A stretch of DNA of 13,829 nucleotides, taken from NCBI GenBank assembly GCA_019649035.1, contig BMAT01008528.1, forward strand, positions 436,114 through 449,942. The letters are read 5' to 3'. Position numbers and translations under genes: made by a program. The DNA is from Elysia marginata. Taxonomy: Eukaryota. A model generated the notes under the pieces. The model did no database searches and was not told the DNA's origin. It saw nothing but the letters and a program-made list of their open reading frames with translations. How positions within the stretch are numbered: position 1 is the stretch's first letter; every line of letters starts with the position of its first letter. This document shows, in pieces, positions 1-13,829 of the stretch.

Positions 1-1295
1 GTCAACTCTTGCTTAAAGTCAACACCAATTTATTCAGACTGTTGTTTGAGTTGTCAGAAGTAAACATGTAGAATGTGCAAAAAACAGTTGTAAAAAAAAA
101 AACAACCCAAGGGTTTTTAAAAAACCAGAGTATAAAGAAAAGGTAAACACAAGATGAGTTTTAACTCAAATAAAGAATGTGCAAAGGAGAGAGGAAAGAA
201 AAAAAAAGAAAATAGAAAATTGAGATGGAGGATGGAAAAGAATGGAAAGCTCTCACAAAAGAAAAAGAAGAGCTTCTTCAGGAAACACTTGTGAATGAAA
301 TGCATTTAAAATTAATTGGCAATTCTCCTAAAAGTACATTATAAAAATAAAGATTCTTTTAAGATATATATAAATTTAAAGTTGACTTCACATTTGAAAA
401 CTGATTTTCAATTGGTCTTAAAGAAAAAAAAATATCTGAAATTCTATTTGTGAGTCAAGCAGGGTGAATAAAGCACAAGTCGCTCGGACAAGTTTTGAGT
501 TGGAGTCTTTCAATATTGAATTTCTTATATAAACAACTATTTTTTTGGCCTTTAAAATTAAGTAACTCAATATATTAAAAAAAAACCAAGAGTAATAGTT
601 TTGCAACCTCTTCCATTCTATTCAAATAATTCTTAAGTTGCAAGGCCCATTTTTGAGGTGTAGGCTTTCAAAATTTTGTGGTTGTTCAGCGGTTTTCACA
701 CCTGATTCGTGTTCTATGGGTTAAATTTAATTGGTGTGGTTGCTAAAGACTTTAAACATATATAGTTGTCAAAACGTTTAATACAATTTGTCCCATTTAT
801 GAAATTTCATCAGTCCTAACCCTGCAAACTTCAAACAGCCATAACTTCAGACAGAAGCATGGTATAGCTGTTCTGTTTCTCGTACTTAAAAGAAGGGAAA
901 AAAAAACTTTTCTGTGATACCAGCATCTCACTGCTTTACAATTTAGACTCATGACTCTTCTTGACTGGTTGTAAGAATAGAGTCCTAGAAAATGTGACCA
1001 ACTCATGAGTTCATTCTGGCTTGTGCCTTATTCACCCTGGATATCTCTCGTTCATTTGGTATTTTGCAGAACAAACAGAGCAGAGCTAAATATAGACTTT
1101 TTTCAAACAACTGATTTATAGGTAACCAGAATATGAAGTCATTTTTTTGTTTAACTAGTGTTATAAGATGAAATTATCAATTATCTCCTGAGATTAGTTT
1201 GCTGCTTGTGCAACATAACATGCATGATGAATACCAAAACCATAATTTGTTCATCCCAGATTCAGTAACTCATATAATTCTCACCAAAATATATG

Positions 1296-1542
1296 ACCCA
1301 ACGTCGTGAAATCAGGCTTATGTAAAAATTTGGACATTTGGAGTTATAAGTATTATGAGAAAGCTTCATATATGTATTTAAATTAGAAAAAAACAATTAT
1401 TACTCTAACTTTACTAGAACCTGAGATATTTGGTTTTTAAGCCGGTGAGGTAAACTTATCTAGCAGTGTTTCATTATTTTTAGCAGCCATTTCCTGGGTT
1501 TGACCCAGTTTGACATAAGCCTGATTTCACCTCGTCGCGTCA
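1296..1542. mobile_element. MITE-like non-autonomous element bounded by terminal inverted repeats
   Basis: The 18-bp stretch gtgaaatcaggcttatgt (1306-1323) recurs as a perfect reverse complement at 1513-1530 (acataagcctgatttcac). Flanking positions also match, giving about 30-bp TIRs (cgtcgtgaaatcaggcttatgt.aaa.t.gg versus cgacgaggtgaaatcaggcttatgt.aaa.t.gg). The roughly 190-bp AT-rich interior is non-coding. Flanks are AT-rich (atat / acatat), compatible with a TA-type target-site duplication but not provable from one copy. Confidence 0.5.
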
Positions 1543-1751: not shown

Positions 1752-1757
1752 TTTATT
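1752..1757 (-). promoter_or_regulatory. Candidate polyadenylation signal AATAAA for the MVP transcript
   Basis: Plus-strand tttatt is AATAAA on the minus strand, about 68 nt downstream of the TAA stop. No closer canonical hexamer exists between the stop and this site. Confidence 0.4.
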
Positions 1758-1824: not shown

Positions 1825-1938
1825 TTATTCTGTCTGGTTATTGCCAACAAGGCCTGCAGCAGTGTTGATTAGGTTGATCGGGGAATTCCCGTCTGTTAGA
1901 AGCACGCTCTCCAGCCCAAGACCTTTCAGCAAATTCAG
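1825..1938 (-). CDS. MVP: Major vault protein terminal coding exon encoding [37 protein letters not shown] followed by TAA (stop at 1825-1827)
   Basis: Acceptor ttcaaaatgcag|CTG (AG at 1940/1939). Aligns to human [32 protein letters not shown]. Too short (38 codons) to appear in the ORF track. The protein ends soon after the cap-ring motif, without the long Pro/Gln-rich tail of the human protein. Confidence 0.85.
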
Positions 1939-2375
1939 CTGCATTTTGAAGACAAATTAAGAGTAGTAATGGTTATTCACAGTTGTGCAGAGATTCACTA
2001 TTCAAGAAAGATCACCAGGTTTATGTTGAAGAAAATACACAGTGATCATATTGACGAAAATAAAAAAAAAGATAAAGGTGGAGTTGCAGAAGGTTTGAAG
2101 TTATGATAGCTAGGTTATCAATGTATATGTAAACAAAATCAAGAATGCTTGTAGTCTTCTTTCACTTTTTAATTCAATGGAGACGCGCAGTTTTTAGTAA
2201 TAAATTATATTTTATAAATCTACAATCAAAGGGAACTAAATGCTGTACATTAATATATGAAGAATAATCTGAGAGTGCTTTCCCATTCCCATTCCACACT
2301 ATAGACAGTTAAGAGAAAAAAAATGCAAAGTCTAATGTTCATATATGAATGGAGCGTCTCTAATGAGTTAAACTC

Positions 2376-2440
2376 GAGCGGCTGCACAGTGCTGCCAGTA
2401 GGTTGGACCACTGGTGCAAGCTGCCGCAGTGTGCGCTCTG
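2376..2440. other. GC-rich imperfect palindrome / hairpin island in the last MVP intron
   Basis: gagcggctgcacagtgctgccag ... ctggtgcaagctgccgcagtgtgcgctc: the outer gagcg/cgctc and inner cacagtgc/gcagtgtg arms are complementary. Local GC content far exceeds the surrounding intron. Confidence 0.4.
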
Positions 2441-3335
2441 TAGACACACCATACAATACTTATAGGTATAGAATATTCAATGGATAGAAGAAACACAACA
2501 GTTTTTTTATGGTGACTATTGTTTTGTAAAAATTTATCCTGAAACAACATTGCACACAAACCAAAAAAGTTATCCACTCTCTCATTTTAATTTCTCAAAA
2601 TATTCTAAACTCTTCGCAAAACCATGGTTTTTACCTCCAGGCTAAAGAAATTAAAATAGCCCTCCAGAGGTTAGTAAATCAACACAAGTCTCACCTGTTC
2701 CAACAGCAGATTGGTGATCTTTCCTATCTACTGTGTTTAATAAACTACTAACACTCTTTGAAAAAAATTTACTATTCTCTCTTATAAGCATGTTCAGTTT
2801 CATATTTGACTTGGCAGTCATTCATCTAAATTTATTGCTGAAGTTGTTTTTTTCTCCAAAAGCTTTACAACTTTTCTCTCTCTTTTGATTTCTAAAAAAA
2901 ACTGTATTTGGTTATTTCTATATTTCCTACAAAAAAATACTGTAAGATTTTGATCCATCTTTTTGTTCTATTTTGGCAGAAACTAAAAACTCTCAACATT
3001 ATTGCCTTTAACTCAATATTTTCTCTCAGAACTTTCAAAATTAATCATGCATTTTAGAATTATCTGTGCAGTTTATTCTCTAAATTCTAATTTCTGAGAT
3101 TGTGCACTTAAAAAGACAAGAATATATATTTCATTGCGATCAGAAAACGATGAATGGTCTTCAACACAAGACTACTAAGAAGAGAAACTCACTTTACACT
3201 AAATATGGGCCTTGATTAAAATATAGGAAGTTCAATTATAGAATACCGGTATTGCAACGGGTGATACACAAGACTTTCAGATGATTTCATCTCATTCATT
3301 AAAAATAAAAGAGCAGACATTGCAAAATAACCAAC

Positions 3336-3416
3336 CTGATTCTGTGGGCCAGCATTAGCCATAGCCACAATAGTAGCTGGTCCTAATGCTGTCACCATTT
3401 CTCTGAATTTGTTCAC
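3336..3416 (-). CDS. MVP: Major vault protein exon encoding VNKFREMVTALGPATIVAMANAGPQNQ (81 nt, phase 0-0)
   Basis: Acceptor cttttttttatttttatag|GTG, donor aatcag|gttggt (weak). Aligns to human [27 protein letters not shown]. The ORF-track ORF 3216..3416 reads through the donor into intron. Confidence 0.85.
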
Positions 3417-3582
3417 CTATAAAAATAAAAAAAGGAAGAAAAATTTAAAATAGAACCTTTAATTTGTTTTTCTCACTATAAAGAGGAATAATGGAACCAA
3501 TTCATATTAAAAAACAATTTTTTATGAAGATCCAAAAAACAAACACACAAATATTGATGAATATGGTGACACCAAAAGCCGA

Positions 3583-3712
3583 CTATTACTACATTACTAC
3601 AAATAGTAACAAATAGTAATAATAGTAATAGCTATAATTTATGATATTATGATTATTATCATTCTTTATTGAAGGGATAAGGATAAAAATGATAATGATG
3701 ATGGATGAAAGA
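3583..3712. repeat. Trinucleotide-rich low-complexity tract (TAC/TAA/TAG/GAT units)
   Basis: actattactacattactacaaatagtaacaaatagtaataatagtaatagc...gataatgatgatggatg; intronic, between exons 3750-3830 and 3336-3416. Confidence 0.5.
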
Positions 3713-3749
3713 ACACCGGAAATAGACACTTTTTATGTTAAACTCATAC

Positions 3750-3830
3750 CTCCAGCTGAGCAAGGCTTTTCTCCTTATTGATTTCCATGGCAATGAGTTT
3801 TTTGTTGTAATCAAGTTCACATTCCTGGAG
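3750..3830 (-). CDS. MVP: Major vault protein exon encoding LQECELDYNKKLIAMEINKEKSLAQLE (81 nt, phase 0-0)
   Basis: Acceptor ttgaaaatttcaacag|CTC, donor ctggag|gtatga. Aligns to human [26 protein letters not shown]. Confidence 0.8.
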
Positions 3831-4132
3831 CTGTTGAAATTTTCAATAATATAATGATATCAATATATGGCAAGAAATACTTCAATCAAACATTCTTACA
3901 GCATAGGTTGAAATTACTAAACATACAAGTTTGAAGTTTTTTCGCAGCTGCAAAGTAATCAGTTAAAGTTGTGATATTTGAAATCCATGACAATTGCACA
4001 CTGATTAAAATGTGGATATTAAAAGCAGCCCAAACTATCTTTACAGCATTACTTCGAATAAAAATATACATGCTTTTAAGAAAAAGATTACAATGAACCT
4101 GTGAACCCATTTTTTTAGGCTCTTTTTCAAAG

Positions 4133-4215
4133 AGATTACAAAATTGAAAAAAAAAATACAACATACACCCTAAAAGATTACAAAGTTGAAAAAAAAATAC
4201 AACGTACACCCTAAG
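4133..4215. repeat. 41-42 bp tandem duplication (2 copies, 3 mismatches) in an MVP intron
   Basis: agattacaaaattgaaaaaaaaaatacaacatacaccctaaa followed directly by agattacaaagttgaaaaaaaaatacaacgtacaccctaag. A partial third copy (aaaaagattacaatgaacc) lies near 4080-4100. Confidence 0.7.
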
Positions 4216-5122
4216 GCATATTTCTCTGCTACTCTTTCATCAAGTCATCTTCATGCTATAGAAGGTATTCAGATAAACATGTTACCTACGATTTCGCCTT
4301 CATACAGTGTATTCCACTTTAGCAATATTTTCACATATCAAGGTAATTGGAATTTTTCATTCAATTCAACAACTTGAAATTTCCTTTTATATACACTTCT
4401 TTCTGCTCATCTTCAATATATCAATATATTTGTTAGCATGAGCAACACTAACAGTGTGCTTCATGCTATGTAATCAGTGATCCCATTACTTATGCATAGA
4501 TCCCCTCATCTCAAACAAAGCCAGAGATTGATTTAGCAATACATCAAGAAAGGAAATATCAGTTATAAATATTTCTTTGTTCGGTATTGATCTCTCCTCA
4601 CTTTCTCATTCTGCAGCTTCCTATTTTTTTATTGACAATTTTATGCAGGACATTATTTTGTCTTCTGAGGACATGTCAATGTAAACGAAATTCACTGTAG
4701 ATTTATCCTCTTAAGTTTCAATCTGAGTGAACTTCTCTTGTAAAACAACAATGAAAGTAGATGGTAGTATTTACTAGCCCTTTTGAAATAATTATAAGAT
4801 AGCTTATAATTCTAAGTTAAATACCTTTATAAAAAATTCACCATATTCTCTTTAGTTAAAGATATCTGATCTCACATACCCTCATAATAATGATTGTATG
4901 TTCTGAAAAAATGCAGTCATCCAGCCTCTTTTCTATAGTGCTTCAGCTGAATTTTAAAAATATTTTCCTATATAACTTTGAACATTTATTCATGATATTA
5001 TTTTGTTTTAGTTTGCAATTTCATTTACAGCAAAAATTGTATAATTTGATTTACACCAAAATCTTTGACCCTTATAGAAAGATATTGTATGTCTTACTAA
5101 ATTAAAACAAAAATAAACTCAC

Positions 5123-5187
5123 CATAACTTGTGACGACAACTTAGAGTTGTGCTCAATATTTGCAGCCTCAGCCTCAAGCCTTGCCA
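5123..5187 (-). CDS. MVP: Major vault protein exon encoding (V)ARLEAEAANIEHNSKLSSQVM (2 + 63 nt)
   Basis: Acceptor ccctcatttttctttag|TG, donor gttatg|gtgagt. Aligns to human AKLKAQALAIETEAELQRVQKV with the same residue spacing to the downstream KKF motif. Confidence 0.75.
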
Positions 5188-5757
5188 CTAAAGAAAAATG
5201 AGGGTTTTTAAACAATAAGATCCAGTTAAAGAAAATGGTAAAGTTATAAGAACAATGTCTTCAGTTAAAACTTCTGTTGTAAAAAAAAATGATTAAAATT
5301 TATAATCAACTGCTCTTTGACTAGAACAAGATCTCCCAGACAATGAGAGTGTACTGTGAAAAATATAGGCTTTGCACTGATGGAAAAATAATTGTGTGAC
5401 AAGTTATAAACTTTTTTTTAAGACTAATACTTAAATGCTGTATACATCTACTGATGGAAAACTTATCCTAGTCACATGTAACTTCTAATTGCCAGAACTG
5501 AACTTGCTCTGAAGAAGAATTATATTAGGAAGTTCAGCTGTATATGGTCACATACAGAATATTCAGATCTTTATTAGCGCTACGATGAGTTTTCTAGAAT
5601 ATTAGAGGAATTACATGTAAGTGGTATACATTAAAACACTAATTCCCACAAGTACAATTTCAATTCCACATTCTACTTAAAGGAGATATAAGTATAATAA
5701 ACTTGGCACTGTGCCTTGTCAGAAAAAACATCAAGTCAAAAGCATGGGAGGCTTCAC

Positions 5758-5984
5758 CTTCAATGTGACTCTGTCCCTCAATCAGCAATCTCTCCGCCTG
5801 AGCCTGAGCCTCTGCCTTGGCCTGCCCTGTGGATTCCACAGCTGCGGCCTGAGCTTTGAGCTCATACAACTTGGCTCTCTCTTTCTCTGACTCTCTCTCT
5901 GTAACTAGCTTTTGGCGCTCCAGCTGACCTTGGGCAATCTGCTCTTCCCTCGCTGCTTCATGCGATGCTGCTGCCTCAATAGAC
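5758..5984 (-). CDS. MVP: Major vault protein exon (cap-helix coiled coil) encoding SIEAAASHEAAREEQIAQGQLERQKLVTERESEKERAKLYELKAQAAAVESTGQAKAEAQAQAERLLIEGQSHIE (1 + 225 + 1 nt)
   Basis: Acceptor aaatttaaaatgcag|G, donor attgaaG|gtgaag. Aligns to human [73 protein letters not shown]. The ORF-track ORF 5660..6004 contains this exon but runs on into intron at both ends. Confidence 0.85.
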
Positions 5985-6259
5985 CTGCATTTTAAATTTG
6001 CCAAAAGAAAAATGAAGATTATCTGTGAAATATAAAATTCTTGCTGAGCACAAATTTAAATGATTTTTTTTCTTAAGTGGTTTAGCTCTATCTTGAATTA
6101 AAAAAGAAGACAGTGGAACTTTTACATTCTTTCACATTTTTACATTCTTTTACATTCTCCTATACTTCTGAATAAAGAGATCAACTTGTTTTTCAAAGGC
6201 AATGCTTTTTTTTATTTTGAAACAGTTGATCAAGCAGTTTTTGTTGGGTTTTTTTTGGT

Positions 6260-6293
6260 GGGGGCCTTAGGGGGTCTGTGGGGTGGGGATGGG
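6260..6293 (+). other. G-quadruplex-forming motif on the plus strand, the template strand for MVP
   Basis: GGGGG ccttag GGGGG tctgt GGGG t GGGG at GGG gives five G-runs of at least 3 with short loops, embedded in an otherwise AT-rich intron. Confidence 0.5.
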
Positions 6294-6479
6294 TGTTTCT
6301 TTTTTGTTGAATCATATGAATAAACAATCATGAAAAAAAAGTTATTTTTTATTTTATTTCAATATTTTTTAGACTCTGTGTGTCTTTGAAATCCAAAATA
6401 TATGCTTCACATGTCAAACTGTAAAAACACTCAAACAAATTAAATTCTAGCCATATCACTATCAGTATTTCACTGGGTT

Positions 6480-6497
6480 TTGTTGTTGTTGTTGTTG
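6480..6497. repeat. (TTG)6 microsatellite
   Basis: ttgttgttgttgttgttg read directly from the sequence; intronic. Confidence 0.8.
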
Positions 6498-6626
6498 CAT
6501 TTTTTTTTCTTTCATCACTTCCTACATTTTACTCTTTATAATTATGTCTGTTATGGTTTAAAGAGCATATAAAGTTTGAAAAAAAAATGAGACAAAGTGT
6601 ACTTAAAATAAAAATCAGCAACTTAC

Positions 6627-6727
6627 TTAGTGGCAATTTCAATGGCTAGTTGAACTGATTTGCTTAAACTGTCCCGCATCTTGACATCAACAGGCTCAAT
6701 GCTTTGAACATCAACTCCACTGATGAC
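6627..6727 (-). CDS. MVP: Major vault protein exon encoding [33 protein letters not shown](K) (99 + 2 nt)
   Basis: Acceptor ctgtttccccaag|GTC, donor ctAA|gtaagt. Aligns to human [34 protein letters not shown]. Confidence 0.9.
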
Positions 6728-7056
6728 CTTGGGGAAACAGTGTTAAAAGTAAGTCATGTATCTCATTTGAGGGGAAAAGAGAGATGGAGAAAACGGGAAA
6801 GTGAAGAACGAGAACAATTAGTAGGGGAAAAACAGAGACATTGTGAGAAACAGCTAGTTTTCAAGACTGCATATTTGAAAAAAAGAGGTAAATAGTTTTT
6901 TAATCATAAAATGAATCAGACTTGATCCTTAACACTGCATTAACTAAAAAATATGAGATGTCACAAAGATCCTCCAATGTTACAATATTCTTATGACTCA
7001 GAGTGTATTGCATTGACAACAACAAAGACAATGTTAAAACTGCATTAATAACCTAC

Positions 7057-7199
7057 AAGGTTGTTAGCACTGAACCTCAGGACTCTGGCAGGCTCACCAG
7101 CCTCATGGGGTCCAAACACGGCTGCTTGGATGATTAGAGCAGAAAAACGGTGGAACTCATCAAATGTAGTTAGGGCAACACGAGCTCGAATACGGCTGC
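7057..7199 (-). CDS. MVP: Major vault protein exon encoding (G)SRIRARVALTTFDEFHRFSALIIQAAVFGPHEAGEPARVLRFSANNL (2 + 141 nt)
   Basis: Acceptor tctaatgtttgcttcttgcag|GC, donor aacctt|gtaggt. Aligns to human [30 protein letters not shown]...PQNGL. A second AG lies 4 nt downstream at 7197/7196; using it would frameshift. Confidence 0.85.
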
Positions 7200-7840
7200 C
7201 TGCAAGAAGCAAACATTAGATTAAGTAATTCTTCCCTCTTTATTTCCCATCCATATCCAGTAAAAAAAAATATTAAAAAATTTAGACTAGATTTTAATAG
7301 AATGCCTTTTCAACACATGTGTAAGTCTGAATACTTCATTTTATCATTGTCAAACAAAACTGAGTGGTTTGCAATATTCCGCAAATACTGTCAAGTCCAC
7401 ATAATTCAAACATGGATAATTTAAATACTTACTTTATTCGAACTTTATGCACATCTCTGATTTTAATTTTCTTTTGTTGTGTATCCTAATAATTCAGTTT
7501 TAATACACTTCAAAGTTAAATTTTGTTCCTACGAGGTACATAATATCCAAACTGGATTGTAGATGGTTTTTGGTGGCTGACAGCTAACTGTTGTTGATAT
7601 TCCAATCATACTCTAACCATATTTAAATACCAAATTAATAATGATAAGAATCAGTAAACATAATTCCAGCATGCATAAGACTTTTTGTGACCACTGTTCA
7701 CATCAATTTTCACATACTATCCATGTCTTGGATAAAAGTAATATTGCTGCCCTTCTTGAGAAATCAATTTACTTCAACAGTAACACACTTCAAAAAGTAG
7801 AAAAATAAGAAAAAGGAAGCAGAGTGGCCTCTGAAATTTG

Positions 7841-7960
7841 TGACCTATATGTAGTTTAAGTCCAGCGCTCATTGTCAGGAGCCTCGGGAACAAACATTGG
7901 TTGTAGGTCAGGTTTCCTCTCTGAAACTTCTGTCAAGCTCTTAGTGAGTACCTTTTTTGT
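7841..7960 (-). other. Exon-like GC-rich island inside the intron between exons 8194-8272 and 7057-7199; possible decayed duplicate of exon 8194-8272
   Basis: Minus-strand translation reads TKKVLTKSLTEVSERKPDLQPMFVPEAPDNERWT* and resembles the real exon product VNKADEESAKKIFSVPDFIGFA and human [24 protein letters not shown]. No usable in-frame GT donor exists before the TAA, and the acceptor context is poor. Confidence 0.25.
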
Positions 7961-8193
7961 TTGGAAAATTTTCTGCAAGAATTTATCATGTGCAGGGATT
8001 TTATGACCTTTGCTGCTCTAAAAATAAAGCATTTTACAGCCAAAAGAAGTAATAGCCAGGTTCTAAAAAGGTTATCATTCAAACAAAACAAAAAAGATGT
8101 TAAAAAAATTACGACAGTTGACAGAAATTCCTTATTTTGTACTAAAGAACACCAAGTTCACATTTTATCTCATTTGTAAGTGTTTGGAAATTT

Positions 8194-8272
8194 CTATATT
8201 CACCTAATTGTCGGCAAGCAAATCCAATGAAGTCTGGGACTGAAAATATTTTTTTTGCACTCTCCTCATCTG
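8194..8272 (-). CDS. MVP: Major vault protein exon encoding VNKADEESAKKIFSVPDFIGFACRQL (78 + 1 nt)
   Basis: Acceptor tcttgtcttggtttaaag|GTT, donor ttaG|gtgaat. Aligns to human [27 protein letters not shown]. Confidence 0.85.
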
Positions 8273-8606
8273 CTTTGTTAACCTTTAAACCAAGACAAGA
8301 AATACAGATTTATCTCAAAATGTAAGTCATGATCAAATATTTTTTATGTAAACAATCACTTGAAACCAGATGGATACCGAAAATGTGATTTATTTCTTTT
8401 AAATAATTTGATTTCCTGTTTTTGTTGATCTATGGTATGAAAGAAAAAATTATAACAGACCATTTTGCTGGCTGTACAAAAATATTGTTACTGACAAGCT
8501 TCTAGAATACAAAACACTTATTTTAACATGCAAATGCCTGGAGCTTTTTAAACACAAGTCTGCTTACAGAGTTATAAAACAAATATTAAAAAACTCAGAA
8601 ACCAAC

Positions 8607-8666
8607 CTCAAAGTAGTTATTGAAAGAAAGTTGAATTCTCAGTCTTGCATGGTCAGAAGTTTCAAC
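8607..8666 (-). CDS. MVP: Major vault protein exon encoding VETSDHARLRIQLSFNNYFE (60 nt, phase 0-0)
   Basis: Acceptor tttgtatttgcag|GTT, donor tttgag|gttggt. Aligns to human [20 protein letters not shown]. Confidence 0.85.
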
Positions 8667-9190
8667 CTGCAAATACAAACCAATAGAAAATAAATTATTA
8701 AAGAAAAAATGTTTTTGAAATGCCAGCATGTACAACTGGGTAGAAGACAAAGTAAGGAATGAGTGTTAATAAGAATTAAAACAAACTTAAAGGCTTTATT
8801 TACTACAATGCTTCAATGAGAGACTTTCAACAAAACAATATTTCATAAGTAATAATTTCAAAAGTATAGAAGGAGAAAATAAGAACTGAAAAATATTTTA
8901 GGTCCGAAGAAGTAACAAGCTAGATAAAATGGTGGGGAATTGACTGAGCTGGAGAAAATCTGTACATAAACTTAACTCAAATATGATACAAAAGCTGGAA
9001 AAGTTTCCCAAATTTAAAGAAATGTATCAAATGCAATCTTTCCACTGGCTGTCAAGTAAAAAAAAACGTTCACCGCCCAAATTGTTTTTCAGCTTATTAA
9101 TTGAAAAAATATGGACAGAGTAAGAAAGACATAGGAGAGGCAGAGTAAAATCTATCTATAAATTCTTTTACTTTCTTTACAATAGCTTAC

Positions 9191-9270
9191 TTCAATTATA
9201 TCTGAGATGAAATCTGGTCCCAGCATCAGACAAAGGGACCTTAGGGCACCCTTCACTTTTGGCTTTCCAG
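9191..9270 (-). CDS. MVP: Major vault protein exon encoding (A)GKPKVKGALRSLCLMLGPDFISDIIE (2 + 78 nt)
   Basis: Acceptor aaaaattgcag|CT, donor attgaa|gtaagc. Aligns to human [29 protein letters not shown]. Confidence 0.85.
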
Positions 9271-9610
9271 CTGCAATTTTTATAATATCAACAATGTACA
9301 TGTACTAGAGGCAGTATTAAAAAAAATGTTTAACATTTAAACTGACTTGTTCAGGAAAATACAGTTTTTCAATAAACAATTAAGAATTATTGAAATTTAA
9401 AAAATAAGATTCTTGTAATGGCAGATTTTACATTAATTTTAAATTTTAATAATCACTCATGATATTTCTTGTTGACATGAATAAGACATTTGAAGACGAA
9501 TATTATTAACTTAGAACATTCGGCAGTTTATAGCAAAATCTCAATAACTTTCTATACATAATTCACAGTCAATAAAAGTTAGTCTTAAAGAGACTTTGAA
9601 TGTATCTCAC

Positions 9611-9764
9611 CACTCAGTCTTAAGACATTAAAGTTTTCATGAGGGCCCAGAACAACTAAATCCGGACCAAAGACGACTCGAGCTGTTTTCATTTGGTAGT
9701 TGTTAACTTGTACAGCTGTGTTGCTTGGACACCTGTAAGTCACTACTTTTGTCTTGTCCCTTCC
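9611..9764 (-). CDS. MVP: Major vault protein exon encoding [51 protein letters not shown] (153 + 1 nt)
   Basis: Acceptor ttttatgatcttttag|GGA, donor agtG|gtgaga. Aligns to human [51 protein letters not shown]. Confidence 0.9.
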
Positions 9765-9971
9765 CTAAAAGATCATAAAATAACAAACAGATTATTCAAA
9801 ATGTGTACCCTAGATGATCAAAACAAAATTTTGAACATTTGATATTTAAATATATAAAGAACTTTTCCTAGGAGTTTATCAGAAATTCAATCAAAATTTT
9901 AGCTTAGGCTGGTACAAACCTTAAAAAAAAAACATTTCTATATGTCCATTAAAACTTTGAAGAGTTTATAC

Positions 9972-10050
9972 CTTTACAACACCAGGATCAATAGACTGTT
10001 CAAAATAAGCCAATTTCCGAATGTCACCAGATCCTGATCCGCCTCCAAGA
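9972..10050 (-). CDS. MVP: Major vault protein exon encoding (S)LGGGSGSGDIRKLAYFEQSIDPGVVK (1 + 78 nt); variable linker region
   Basis: Acceptor ctctttttctctttaaactttgcacacaag|T, donor gtaaag|gtataa. The frame is fixed by phase 2 of the upstream exon and phase 0 of the downstream exon. The alternative frame used by the ORF-track ORF 9974..10210 ends in TAA before the donor. Confidence 0.75.
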
Positions 10051-10345
10051 CTTGTGTGCAAAGTTTAAAGAGAAAAAGAGAAAAAAAACCTCTTTGAACG
10101 ATATGTGTTATACCATTACATATTGTCATAATTGATAAAGTTATGTTTATTGCTATGTCATAATGAAAGTTCAAAATTTCCGGGGTTGTGGCTTTATAAT
10201 AACTTTTCAAATATTACACAATGCCTGATAACATAAAGACAAAATTGAATGAGAAAAAAAATAAGATAAAACTAACCGTAAAGGTCTTTAAGCAGTTTGT
10301 AAGACTTTTATCAATTAAAAACTTGGTGCTTAAGTAGATTGCTAC

Positions 10346-10440
10346 CTGAGTAATTCCTCAGTCTCTTCGCTGAGTTGTTTTACCCATGGTTCCTCATGAG
10401 CTGTCAGTCTGTAGGCACATGGACCCATCACCAGCCGCAC
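10346..10440 (-). CDS. MVP: Major vault protein exon encoding VRLVMGPCAYRLTAHEEPWVKQLSEETEELL (93 + 2 nt)
   Basis: Acceptor ttgttactatttgtag|GTG, donor ctcAG|gtagca. Aligns to human [30 protein letters not shown]. Confidence 0.85.
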
Positions 10441-11299
10441 CTACAAATAGTAACAAAAAAAATTAAATAGAGAAAAACCTCATCATCAAAAGTAAGACAA
10501 CATGTTTCATACAGAATCATTCGTAAAATGTAATTGCCAATGTATAGTCCTCCTGTAAATGATCCCAGTGGCAGTTTTTTTTACTCTAAAAAGTTTCAGT
10601 CTTTTATTATAATTTTTCCTTTTCGTTTTTAAGTCTAATGCATTTCATCGCGTACAACCATGAAAACATTGAAATGGTAGCTGAAAATTAGATATTTATC
10701 GGAGCATAAATATCTCTTCATGTCCCTTATAACATGAAATCGGAAATAAATATTTCTTAGGCTTTTTTTAGAATGGATCTTTCTGACCCCAAATCTTTCA
10801 AATGCAATAACTGAGCTCATAATCCAGATATCAAACAGTTTTGCACTGCCTCAAAGTGTTCAGAAGAGTGTTGAAAAACGGATATATTTCAAAGTTCTGC
10901 AACTATATTTTGTGGGAGTCTTACATATATATTTCAGTAGATTATGATAAGAATTACAGTTTTAAGTCTCTTTCAATATTTAAAATTATTGCACAATGGA
11001 AAAAATGTCATAAGTTGCAGGGAAGCAGGTGCGAATATTAGCAAAGAACGAAGTGTTGTTTTGAGAAGAAGAAGGACATGCATATTCTCCACCCTTCATA
11101 GATTGCAAGTCTTTAAGTATGCTTTTAAAAGCGTTTAACAATGTCTTAATATAATCTTAATCACTTTCACCCTGAAACAAAATTAAATTATGAAGTCAGC
11201 AAGAGAGCATCCACTTTTTAGCAATAACTAACTAACACAGCTACTGGAGGCAATATGATACAGCACATCTTTTTAACTTGAAAAAGTTAAAAAGGTATA

Positions 11300-12335
11300 A
11301 AAATTGTTTTCTGTCATGTTACAACTTTACCTTGCCTTCATCTCAATTCAGAATGATTTCATAAAAATATATTTTATATTTTACATAGCTGCTGCTTTTG
11401 ACAAAATAGATTACAAAATTTTGATTGAGCGTCTTTCAAAAAAAATTGGATTGGCCGGCATTGTACTTGACTGGTTCAGGTCATATCTGAGAAGTCATAC
11501 TCAAAAGTTTTTTTAAACATGAAAGACAATCAAAGGCATTTCCCTTAAATTTTGATGTATCTCAGGGATTGGTTCTAGACCCCATGCTATACATGTTGTA
11601 CACTCAGCCACTGGGGTATGTAATGAGATTAGACAATGCTCAGTTCAAAAAGGTATGCTGATTGCACACAGCTTGATAAAGCTGTGACACCATGCAAAAG
11701 CTATCTAATGGTGAGCACCCTGGAAAAATGTATTATTTACTGAAGCAAAAACCTTAATGATGATAAACAAACCTAAAATGGTTGAGGATAAAATGGAAGT
11801 GCTCCCATGTGACCCTAGCAAAGTCAATGAATCCAATGATCAGAACTACATTTGCTTAGACAGTGAATAAAATCCCTTTTAGAACTAAAGCAAAAAATTT
11901 GGGGTATATTTTTATGAAATCTCTCAATGGAAGACCATGTCCATCATGTCTGTAACATTCTCTTTTGTGAGCTCTTGAGAATAGGGCAGATGTGTAGGTT
12001 CTTAAATATTGCTCCCTTGAAAACGTTAATCTCTTTATGTTGGTTTGCCAGACAGGGTAATAAGTGAACTGCAATGATTTCAAAACTATGCTGCCAGGCT
12101 AATGTTAAAAAGAAAAACAGTGATTATATTACTTTTATGCAAAACTCTATAACAATGGCCGGACGCTGTCAACGTCCGGTGCACCATTTTATATCCACGG
12201 TTGGACACTGCAAGCATCCGATGATAACTAAGAAAGGCCACTAGAGCCATAATGCAATTTGGGACTAGGCCGTGTATACTCGATCTGCATTGTTATTATT
12301 ATTTTTGTCGTAATTATTATTATATGTTGCTCTTG
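11300..12335 (+). mobile_element. 5'-truncated, frameshifted non-LTR retrotransposon (CR1/L2-like LINE) ORF2 fragment, antisense to MVP inside the intron between exons 12395-12455 and 10346-10440
   Basis: Plus-strand translation with frameshifts gives RT motifs ...YIAAAFDKIDYKILIERLSKKIGLAGIVLDWFRSYLRSHTQ (domain A region), VSQGLVLDPMLYMLY (GVPQGSVLGPLLF-like) and YADCTQLD (YADD box). Further 3' it gives DKMEVL (KTEVL-like), SDYITF.. / ..TLSTSGAPFYI (resembling the hitP...G.AP.YL C-terminal motif of CR1/L2 ORF2), and then a (TTA)n-like tail at 12292-12330. The 5' boundary is uncertain and may start nearer 11230. Confidence 0.65.
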
Positions 12336-12394
12336 CTTTTAAGTAGTGAGTCTCATAATCTGATGGTAAAGAGTAAAATCTTAAAATTTACTAC

Positions 12395-12455
12395 CTTGCC
12401 AGTTTGCATGTTCTGCACATAGATGCCATCATTCTTATTCAATGGAATTGTTGAT
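12395..12455 (-). CDS. MVP: Major vault protein exon encoding (R)STIPLNKNDGIYVQNMQTGK (1 + 60 nt)
   Basis: Acceptor tctcttttgcag|A, donor ggcaag|gtagta. Aligns to human [21 protein letters not shown]. Phase is consistent with the upstream exon (ag+a = Arg). Confidence 0.85.
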
Positions 12456-12915
12456 CTGCAAAAGAGAATAATCACATAAGTTTATATACAATGTCTGTGC
12501 CAAAGAACAAGGTTGACAGATATTACAGTACAGCTGCAGTTAAAGAAAAATATTAAATCTAGAAAATAAAACTAAGATCAAAGCCAGCACCTTTGAAAAA
12601 TTGGTGAAATAATTTCCTCCTAAATGTCAAATTGACACCTTTTCTAGTTGCCTTGAATAATGATAGATATTCTGCAAAACTATTTGTTTGGGCGATTAAC
12701 TTTGAATCTCAAGATACAGGGATGAAAGAGAATAGCTTCACCTGGAAAAGCAGTTCAGTTGTCAAACGGTAAAGTAACACCGACATAACCATGAAGAACT
12801 TCAAAATTTGATCAAGTCTTCTCAGCAGCAAGTATTTCATACCAGATTTGCACAGTGTTTTCATCAAAACAAGAATATTACTTTTAATGATTTAAGGAAT
12901 AAAAGTTATGTTCAC

Positions 12916-13006
12916 CTTTGTTTAATGATTTCCACTTCAACAGGTGGTATGTAGTTGCATGGCCCATTGATCAGCCACTGGTCTCCAGTTTTTCTCTTTA
13001 TCTTCT
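12916..13006 (-). CDS. MVP: Major vault protein exon, the most 5' one recognisable in the window; encodes (E)KIKRKTGDQWLINGPCNYIPPVEVEIIKQ and ends in phase 2 ('ag' carried forward)
   Basis: Minus-strand translation aligns to human MVP ...[34 protein letters not shown]. Donor caaAG|gtgaac at 12915/12914. The acceptor is uncertain: AG at 13008-13007 after a polypyrimidine tract tttttttccatatcatctgctgtcacttg, with an alternative AG 2 nt downstream. The reading frame upstream of 13010 is nonsense with stops. Confidence 0.6.
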
Positions 13007-13829
13007 CTTTCAAGTGACAGCAGATGATATGGAAAAAAATCACACACACTATCGTTAAAAAAAAATATAGGCCTAGCTCAGAATAATGTTTGAAATACTG
13101 TGTTGCAATGGATGAGTGCCATTTAGGTTTTAGCTTTATGAATATTAACTTTTAGAACCACTAATCTGGCCATGAGTATTTAAATATAGAGTAGAGCTTT
13201 TTTCACATAAGTCATTTGTAAGAAATTTGATAAAATTAAAAAAAAAACATTTGAAAAGGCTCAACCACATTAGGTAGATGGATGACACTTGCTTCAGGCT
13301 CAGACCTTTAACGGGTGAGCTTTAATTTTAAATAAGGCTTGTATGTTCAAAGCAAAATAGTAACTTAAAAATTAACAAAACTGCTTCTTAAAATTGATGT
13401 ACAGTTACTCTGAATCTGATGTTTTTACAAAACTAAGTGAATGGGCCTGGCCTCTATTGCACAAAAAAACACCAACATTTCAGTAACTTTTTTAAAAGTT
13501 CAGATGAAACTTCTGCTAGATGTAAAAAATGCAAGTTCTTCGATTATTAATTACATTTGTTTGGGTCCCATAAAATGAGTCTTCATAGAGAATTTTGTGA
13601 AATGGAGTTACATACAACTTTGGAAATACGTTTCAAATCTCTCTAAGATGGTGAGAATATTGTTTTGATATCTCACTTAGGTCCTGACTTATTGAACACA
13701 AAAGACATGGAATCCAAGTGGCCTATTTGAAAAAAATGGAGAAATTGGACTTCAAGTTTTCATAACTATTGTAAAAGCCAAAAGGGCAATACCCTATTCT
13801 AACAATCTTTAAAAAAAAACTTTTTACAT

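What the first reader, a model, noticed from the sequence alone, without database searches (positions are those of the whole stretch)
1825..13006. C-terminal half of a major vault protein gene on the minus strand, 15 exons with a fully phase-consistent splice chain
Hand translation of minus-strand segments yields, in order, MVP shoulder, cap-helix and cap-ring sequence, including ...GIYVQNMQTGK/VRLVMGP..., ...[14 protein letters not shown]..., ...LCLMLGPDFISDIIE/VETSDHARL..., ...IFSVPDFIGFACRQL..., ...[10 protein letters not shown]...[22 protein letters not shown]..., ...VNKFREMVTALGPAT... and ...[18 protein letters not shown]. Every junction has GT-AG boundaries and the carried phases match (junction codons AGA, AGT, GCT, GGC, AAG, GTG). 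The residue count between the IEG and KKF motifs equals that of the human protein (61). Exons are short (60-227 nt) in AT-rich introns, typical of an invertebrate metazoan genome. The ORF track captures only fragments of three exons. The protein terminates shortly after the cap-ring motif.
Basis: partly seen in the sequence, partly recalled or inferred. Interest (0 to 1): 0.5.

Follow-up and report, generated by a model that had tools for sequence, protein, structure and literature searches.

The report
Sea-slug major vault protein gene

Summary
Confirmed and ordinary. All eleven quoted peptides are on the minus strand. Fifteen exons of 60-227 nt join through AG/GT boundaries into one open frame of 502 codons plus TAA at 1825-1827. 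The six split codons are AGA, AGT, GCT, GGC, AAG and GTG, as stated.

The translation aligns end to end with solved major vault proteins (MVP), residues 348-851, E = 8e-155. It hits Pfam Vault, Vault_4, Vault_3 and MVP_shoulder above their cut-offs. It is identical to residues 321-822 of the GenBank protein "major vault protein-like [Elysia marginata]".

In the Elysia crispata orthologue all 15 exons have the same lengths and splice positions. DNA similarity is confined to the exons, and dN/dS is 0.055. This is a functional gene under purifying selection, not a pseudogene.

Small corrections:
- The protein ends ...[11 protein letters not shown], not ...AAGL*.
- "61" is the span including both motifs; 55 residues lie between them.
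- Exons 1-6 encode the last repeat domains, not the shoulder.
- No further exon lies in 13007-13829.

Novelty: already known. Interest is low.

The parts
12916..13006 (-). Exon 1 of the window (91 nt). It starts with 2 bases (AG) that complete a Lys codon begun in the upstream exon outside the window. Encodes (K)KIKRKTGDQWLINGPCNYIPPVEVEIIKQ, the end of a vault repeat.
   Evidence: Splice sites; Pfam Vault PF01505 at residues 2-21; E. crispata exon of the same length with AG/GT at the same positions.
12395..12455 (-). Exon 2 (61 nt). Junction codon AG|A = Arg. Encodes RSTIPLNKNDGIYVQNMQTGK.
10346..10440 (-). Exon 3 (95 nt). Encodes VRLVMGPCAYRLTAHEEPWVKQLSEETEELL, part of a repeat domain (Pfam Vault_4).
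   Evidence: Pfam Vault_4 at residues 33-82.
9972..10050 (-). Exon 4 (79 nt). Junction codon AG|T = Ser. Encodes SLGGGSGSGDIRKLAYFEQSIDPGVVK, a Gly-rich loop conserved in invertebrate MVPs and divergent in vertebrates.
   Evidence: the loop is conserved in molluscs, a brachiopod, hemichordates and Capsaspora.
9611..9764 (-). Exon 5 (154 nt). Encodes [51 protein letters not shown], the last repeat domain (Pfam Vault_3).
   Evidence: Pfam Vault_3 at residues 115-176.
9191..9270 (-). Exon 6 (80 nt). Junction codon G|CT = Ala. Encodes AGKPKVKGALRSLCLMLGPDFISDIIE, the end of Vault_3 and the start of the shoulder.
8607..8666 (-). Exon 7 (60 nt). Encodes VETSDHARLRIQLSFNNYFE (shoulder).
   Evidence: MVP_shoulder PF11978 at residues 177-294.
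8204..8282 (-). Exon 8 (79 nt). Encodes VNKADEESAKKIFSVPDFIGFACRQL (shoulder).
7057..7199 (-). Exon 9 (143 nt). Junction codon G|GC = Gly. Encodes GSRIRARVALTTFDEFHRFSALIIQAAVFGPHEAGEPARVLRFSANNL (shoulder).
6627..6727 (-). Exon 10 (101 nt). Encodes [33 protein letters not shown], the end of the shoulder and the start of the cap-helix.
5758..5984 (-). Exon 11 (227 nt). Junction codon AA|G = Lys. Encodes KSIEAAASHEAAREEQ...LLIEGQSHIE (cap-helix).
   Evidence: This exon alone hits MVP residues 669-740 at E = 3e-13.
5123..5187 (-). Exon 12 (65 nt). Junction codon G|TG = Val. Encodes VARLEAEAANIEHNSKLSSQVM (cap-helix).
3750..3830 (-). Exon 13 (81 nt). Encodes LQECELDYNKKLIAMEINKEKSLAQLE (cap-helix).
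3336..3416 (-). Exon 14 (81 nt). Encodes VNKFREMVTALGPATIVAMANAGPQNQ, the end of the cap-helix and the start of the cap-ring.
1825..1938 (-). Exon 15, coding part (114 nt including the TAA stop at 1825-1827). Encodes [37 protein letters not shown] (cap-ring and C-terminus).
   Evidence: the E. crispata terminal coding exon has the same length and ends in TAA.
1752..1757 (-). AATAAA hexamer 68 nt downstream of the stop codon. It is a candidate polyadenylation signal and would give a short 3' UTR. This is inferred only.
   Evidence: pattern match only; there are no transcript data.

Best explanation
Window 1825-13006 (minus strand) is the 3' part of the single-copy major vault protein (MVP) gene of the sacoglossan sea slug Elysia marginata, or a genome indistinguishable from it at this locus. 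It holds 15 short coding exons separated by AT-rich GT-AG introns of 207-1954 nt. They encode residues 321-822 of the annotated 822-aa protein. In order, these are the end of one vault repeat, the last two repeat domains, the SPFH-like shoulder domain, the long cap-helix and the cap-ring.

By homology with the solved rat and human particles, the protein should assemble through lateral contacts of the shoulder and cap-helix into 39-fold half-shells. Two half-shells make the 78-subunit vault particle, and the part encoded here forms the shoulder and cap. This step is inferred, not shown.

Shown here: the exon chain, its identity to the annotated protein, family membership by sequence, conservation of exon structure, and purifying selection. 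Inferred: transcription, the polyadenylation site and particle assembly in the slug.
For: - All quoted peptides are present and collinear.
- There are 15 exons with AG/GT boundaries and one open frame of 502 codons.
- phmmer against PDB sequences gives E = 8.2e-155 over MVP residues 349-850, gap-free from residue 297 onward (end of shoulder, cap-helix, cap-ring).
- Pfam hits are MVP_shoulder 152 bits, Vault_3 113 bits, Vault_4 31 bits and Vault 28.6 bits, all above their cut-offs.
- The model is 100% identical at 100% coverage to 'major vault protein-like [Elysia marginata]'. The next best hits are E. crispata at 90% and Plakobranchus ocellatus at 88%. It is an exact suffix of P0001.
- The E. 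crispata locus has 15 of 15 orthologous exons of identical length with splice sites at the same positions. P. ocellatus has 10 with identical length and splice positions, plus a partial hit on exon 15. No DNA similarity lies outside the exons.
- Against E. crispata, differences by codon position are 47/24/188 and dN/dS is 0.055.
- Vault architecture and the role of the shoulder and cap-helix in assembly are described in PMC3762200 and PMC7916137.
Against: No evidence here contradicts this reading; what follows are gaps in support. There are no transcript data, so the junctions rest on sequence, annotation and comparative evidence. Two donors (exon 7 GAG|gttggt and exon 14 CAG|gttggt) are weak matches to the consensus, although their positions are conserved in E. 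crispata. The N-terminal 320 residues lie outside the window. Vault particles have not been demonstrated in Elysia by anything examined here.
Confidence: 0.98

Rival explanations
1. The locus is a decayed or non-functional MVP copy (a pseudogene) that only looks intact in a hand-picked splice chain.
For: Only the C-terminal part is visible in the window. There are no expression data. Two donors are weak.
Against: The frame is open through 502 codons and every splice site is canonical. Substitutions against E. crispata are concentrated at third codon positions, and dN/dS is 0.055. All exon lengths are conserved. Only one E. marginata protein appears among the hits.
Confidence: 0.01
2. It is a genuine MVP-family gene whose product in this animal mainly does something other than build cytoplasmic vault shells. 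An extracellular structural role has been reported for MVP in the salmon louse.
For: A non-canonical use of MVP exists in another invertebrate (PMC11219742, listed). Nothing here tests localisation or assembly.
Against: All assembly-relevant parts (shoulder, full-length gap-free cap-helix, cap-ring) are conserved at about the level seen across animals. The gene looks like the single orthologue of canonical MVP. Nothing in the sequence suggests secretion, but the N-terminus is outside the window.
Confidence: 0.01

Closest known systems
Major vault protein-like [Elysia marginata], GenBank/UniRef entry returned as P0001 (822 aa)
   Same: Residues 321-822 are identical to the spliced translation of the window, including the C-terminus ...[11 protein letters not shown].
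   Different: No difference within the window. The annotated protein is about 32 residues shorter at the N-terminus than its E. crispata (854 aa) and P. ocellatus (855 aa) orthologues. This is probably a missed first exon outside the window.
MVP of Elysia crispata (P0002, locus L001) and Plakobranchus ocellatus (P0003, locus L002)
   Same: 90% and 88% protein identity. In E. crispata all 15 exons have the same lengths, phases and splice positions.
   Different: Intron lengths and sequences are unrelated, with no blastn hit outside the exons. E. crispata uses a GC donor after exon 6 where the window has GT.
Mammalian MVP of solved vault structures (rat 4V60/4HL8, human 11DR and others)
   Same: Collinear alignment to residues 348-851 at E about 1e-154. 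From residue 297 onward (end of shoulder, cap-helix, cap-ring) it is gap-free. The IEG..KKF span has the same length, 61 residues.
   Different: The loop encoded by exon 4 (GGGSGSGDIRKLAYFEQSIDP) is the conserved invertebrate form and does not match the mammalian loop. A shorter loop follows 'AVFG' in the shoulder. The slug protein stops 7 residues after ...AAGL, whereas human MVP (893 aa) continues for about 40 more residues beyond the aligned end.

Membership tests
Major vault protein (MVP) | Vault repeat domains (Pfam Vault, Vault_2, Vault_3, Vault_4) preceding the shoulder | tested here: met
   Within the window, Vault (28.6 bits against a cut-off of 27), Vault_4 (31.1 against 22.9) and Vault_3 (112.6 against 28.8) are all met. 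The earlier repeats lie outside the window, but the identical annotated protein P0001 carries PF17794 and PF01505.
Major vault protein (MVP) | MVP shoulder domain (PF11978, SPFH/band-7-like) | tested here: met
   152.2 bits, E = 7.6e-45, covering the full profile 1-118 at residues 177-294.
Major vault protein (MVP) | Long uninterrupted cap-helix (~155 residues) followed by a cap-ring segment | tested here: met
   Query 297-497 aligns without gaps to residues 650-850 of solved MVP chains. The domain description comes from PMC7916137. Helicity was not predicted separately.
Major vault protein (MVP) | Orthology: best matches are MVPs across eukaryotes, with a single copy in the genome | tested here: met
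   2751 hits at E <= 1e-30. Every named protein among the best 120 is either called MVP or is an uninformative 'hypothetical/unnamed' entry, and all 120 carry the Pfam vault domains. Only one E. marginata entry appears.
Major vault protein (MVP) | Assembly into 78-subunit vault particles | not testable with these tools
   Inferred from homology only. It needs electron microscopy or recombinant expression.
Major vault protein (MVP) | Expressed, correctly spliced mRNA | not testable with these tools
   No RNA-seq was available. Indirect support comes from exon structure identical to E. crispata and dN/dS of 0.055.

The most novel reading that the evidence does not exclude
The only non-ordinary reading the data leave open is that this canonical-looking MVP has an additional or different role in sacoglossan slugs, for example an extracellular or structural use as reported for the salmon louse. 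Nothing in the sequence points to it.
Probability: 0.02. Interest if true: 0.3.

Novelty: already known. Interest (0 to 1): 0.05.

Why it matters
It matters little scientifically. MVP is widespread in eukaryotes, and this gene is already annotated in the public Elysia marginata assembly. The result is useful mainly as validation: a tool-free reader reconstructed a 15-exon splice chain correctly to the base. The window can therefore be filed as ordinary protein-coding sequence from a mollusc.

Tried and rejected
- **Further upstream MVP exon in 13007-13829.** tblastn with the N-terminal 321 residues of P0001 found only cross-matches of other repeats to exon 1. That stretch is therefore intron.
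- **Alternative splice sites.** I considered acceptors 13004, 13001 and 13048 for exon 1, 9759 for exon 5 (which would skip exon 4), donor 5129 for exon 12 and acceptor 3824 for exon 13. The annotated protein and the E. crispata boundaries support the chosen sites.
- **RNA genes.** An Rfam scan at gathering thresholds and ARAGORN on the whole window found nothing.
- **Intronic and flanking ORFs.** Pfam on ten of the longest gave no hit better than E = 0.03, and none was near its cut-off.
- **Conserved intronic elements.** blastn hits overhang exons 5, 6, 7 and 14 by 20-43 nt. On inspection these are T-rich or A-rich tracts next to the splice sites, so they are not distinct elements.
- **A lineage-specific insertion in exon 4.** The Gly-rich loop proved to be the common invertebrate and holozoan form.
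- **The E. marginata contig.** The look-up of encoding contigs has no record for P0001, so the contig could not be fetched to view the 5' exons and neighbouring genes.
- **Guide sequence.** The first tblastn guide was a human MVP sequence recalled from memory. It served only as a lead, and all conclusions rest.
Full report
**Observation.** They lie in the stated order between 12427 and 1849. Around each conserved block I listed every AG acceptor and GT donor inside the open stretch. I read two ambiguous regions base by base.

Only one chain keeps the frame. It has 15 exons:

| Exon | Window coordinates | Length (nt) |
|---|---|---|
| 1 | 12916-13006 | 91 |
| 2 | 12395-12455 | 61 |
| 3 | 10346-10440 | 95 |
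| 4 | 9972-10050 | 79 |
| 5 | 9611-9764 | 154 |
| 6 | 9191-9270 | 80 |
| 7 | 8607-8666 | 60 |
| 8 | 8204-8282 | 79 |
| 9 | 7057-7199 | 143 |
| 10 | 6627-6727 | 101 |
| 11 | 5758-5984 | 227 |
| 12 | 5123-5187 | 65 |
| 13 | 3750-3830 | 81 |
| 14 | 3336-3416 | 81 |
| 15 | 1825-1938 | 114 |

- Introns are 207-1954 nt long.
- Every acceptor is AG and every donor is GT.
- The 1511-nt concatenate is open in one frame only: 502 codons plus TAA at 1825-1827.
The other eight junctions are phase 0.
- Exons are 45.7% G+C and introns 30.4%.

**What it is.** The largest exon alone matches major vault protein (MVP) residues 669-740 at E = 3e-13. The full spliced translation aligns to solved MVP chains over query 1-498 and MVP 348-851, at E = 8e-155 to 2e-153. 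There are no gaps from residue 297 onward, which covers the end of the shoulder, the cap-helix and the cap-ring.

Pfam gives four hits, all above their gathering scores:
- MVP_shoulder, full profile, 152 bits.
- Vault_3, 113 bits.
- Vault_4, 31 bits.
- Vault, 29 bits.

In the large protein collection the best hit is "major vault protein-like [Elysia marginata]", with 100% identity over 100% of the query. Elysia crispata follows at 90%, Plakobranchus ocellatus at 88% and other gastropods at about 70-75%. The model is an exact suffix (residues 321-822) of that annotated protein. The window therefore comes from Elysia marginata, a sacoglossan gastropod. Its genome was released together with that of P. 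ocellatus (PMC8079154).

**Independent support for the junctions.** I fetched the E. crispata and P. ocellatus MVP loci and compared them with the window by blastn.
- Similarity is confined to the exons. No hit at E <= 1e-5 lies outside them.
- In E. crispata all 15 exons are found with exactly the same lengths. AG and GT sit at the same positions, except for one GC donor after exon 6.
- Splicing those E. crispata coordinates reproduces the C-terminus of its annotated protein.
- In P. ocellatus ten exons are recovered at the DNA level with the same lengths and boundaries, plus a partial hit on exon 15.
- Against E. crispata, differences by codon position are 47, 24 and 188. Nei-Gojobori dN/dS is 0.055. 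The gene is under strong purifying selection and is not a pseudogene.

- The protein does not end at ...AAGL. It continues VGNNQTE and then TAA. The coordinate 1825 was nevertheless right.
- The "61 residues" is the IEG..(K/N)KF span including both motifs, with 55 residues between them. The span is equal in slug and human. The human count used a sequence recalled from memory. The gap-free alignment to solved human MVP shows the equal length independently.
- Exons 1-6 encode the end of one vault repeat and the last two repeat domains, so the window holds more than shoulder, cap-helix and cap-ring.
- There is no further MVP exon between 13007 and 13829. The preceding exon (...ESLDKQTVQNARILSEQESLVLRAINDFTETVEG) lies beyond the window.

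**How it works.** In solved vaults, 78 MVP chains form two 39-fold half-shells. The N-termini sit at the waist. The repeats R1-R9 form the barrel, followed by the shoulder, a 155-residue cap-helix and the cap-ring (PMC7916137). The coiled-coil cap-helix and the shoulder drive lateral association (PMC3762200).

The part encoded in this window is exactly that assembly-critical half, and it is conserved without indels from the end of the shoulder to the cap-ring. I infer that the slug protein builds vault shells in the same way. From my memory of Tanaka et al. 2009, the rat boundary Leu802/Gly803 falls at ...TAL|GPAT in exon 14. Assembly, expression and the polyadenylation site are inferences. 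The candidate polyadenylation signal is the AATAAA at 1752-1757, 68 nt after the stop.

**Surroundings.**
- Rfam and tRNA scans found nothing.
- None of ten long intronic or flanking ORFs matches a Pfam family convincingly.
- Intron 2 carries, on the plus strand, a frameshifted remnant of a non-LTR retrotransposon reverse transcriptase. My hand-stitched translation gives RVT_1 at E = 1.3e-4, below the family cut-off.
- Short intron flanks that align between species are only pyrimidine-rich or A-rich tracts.
- The Gly-rich loop of exon 4 is the common invertebrate form, not a novelty.

**Verdict.** The gene is already annotated and wholly ordinary. Novelty is "already known" and interest is 0.05.

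Noticed in passing
window ~11300-11730, + strand (inside intron 2, antisense to MVP): A degraded non-LTR retrotransposon reverse-transcriptase remnant is spread over three frames (…AAAFDKIDYKILIERLSKKIGLAGIVLDWFRSYL… / …FPLNFDVSQGLVLDPMLYMLYTQPLG… / …YADCTQL…). A hand-stitched translation hits Pfam RVT_1 at E = 1.3e-4 and 22 bits, below the 29.6-bit cut-off.
   Followed up: partly
outside the window: annotated protein P0001 compared with P0002 and P0003: The annotated E. marginata MVP is 822 aa. Its Met1 aligns with residue 33 or 34 of the 854/855-aa E. crispata and P. ocellatus proteins (…TLMLQTNEKLVAGP…). The public annotation probably lacks the first coding exon, about 32 residues.
   Followed up: no
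L001 15671/15672 (E. crispata orthologue of the donor at window 9191/9190): E. crispata has a GC donor (GAG|gcaagt) after exon 6, where E. marginata has GT (GAA|gtaagc). This is a GC-AG intron at a conserved position.
   Followed up: no
window 4133-4214 (intron 12): A 41-nt A-rich unit is duplicated in tandem: 2 copies, 92% matches.
   Followed up: no
window 1286-1327 and 1509-1550 (downstream of the gene): An inverted repeat with 42-nt arms, 83% complementary, 181 nt apart. It may mark the ends of a small transposable element. It has no match in the E. crispata or P. ocellatus loci.
   Followed up: no
window 9972-10050 (exon 4): The loop GGGSGSGDIRKLAYFEQSIDP, encoded by its own 79-nt exon, is strongly conserved from molluscs to hemichordates and Capsaspora. 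In mammals it is replaced by an unrelated sequence.
   Followed up: partly
L001 1-515 (E. crispata, upstream of MVP, opposite strand): The neighbouring gene in E. crispata encodes a YL1_C-domain protein. Whether the same neighbour exists in E. marginata could not be checked because the contig was not retrievable.
   Followed up: no
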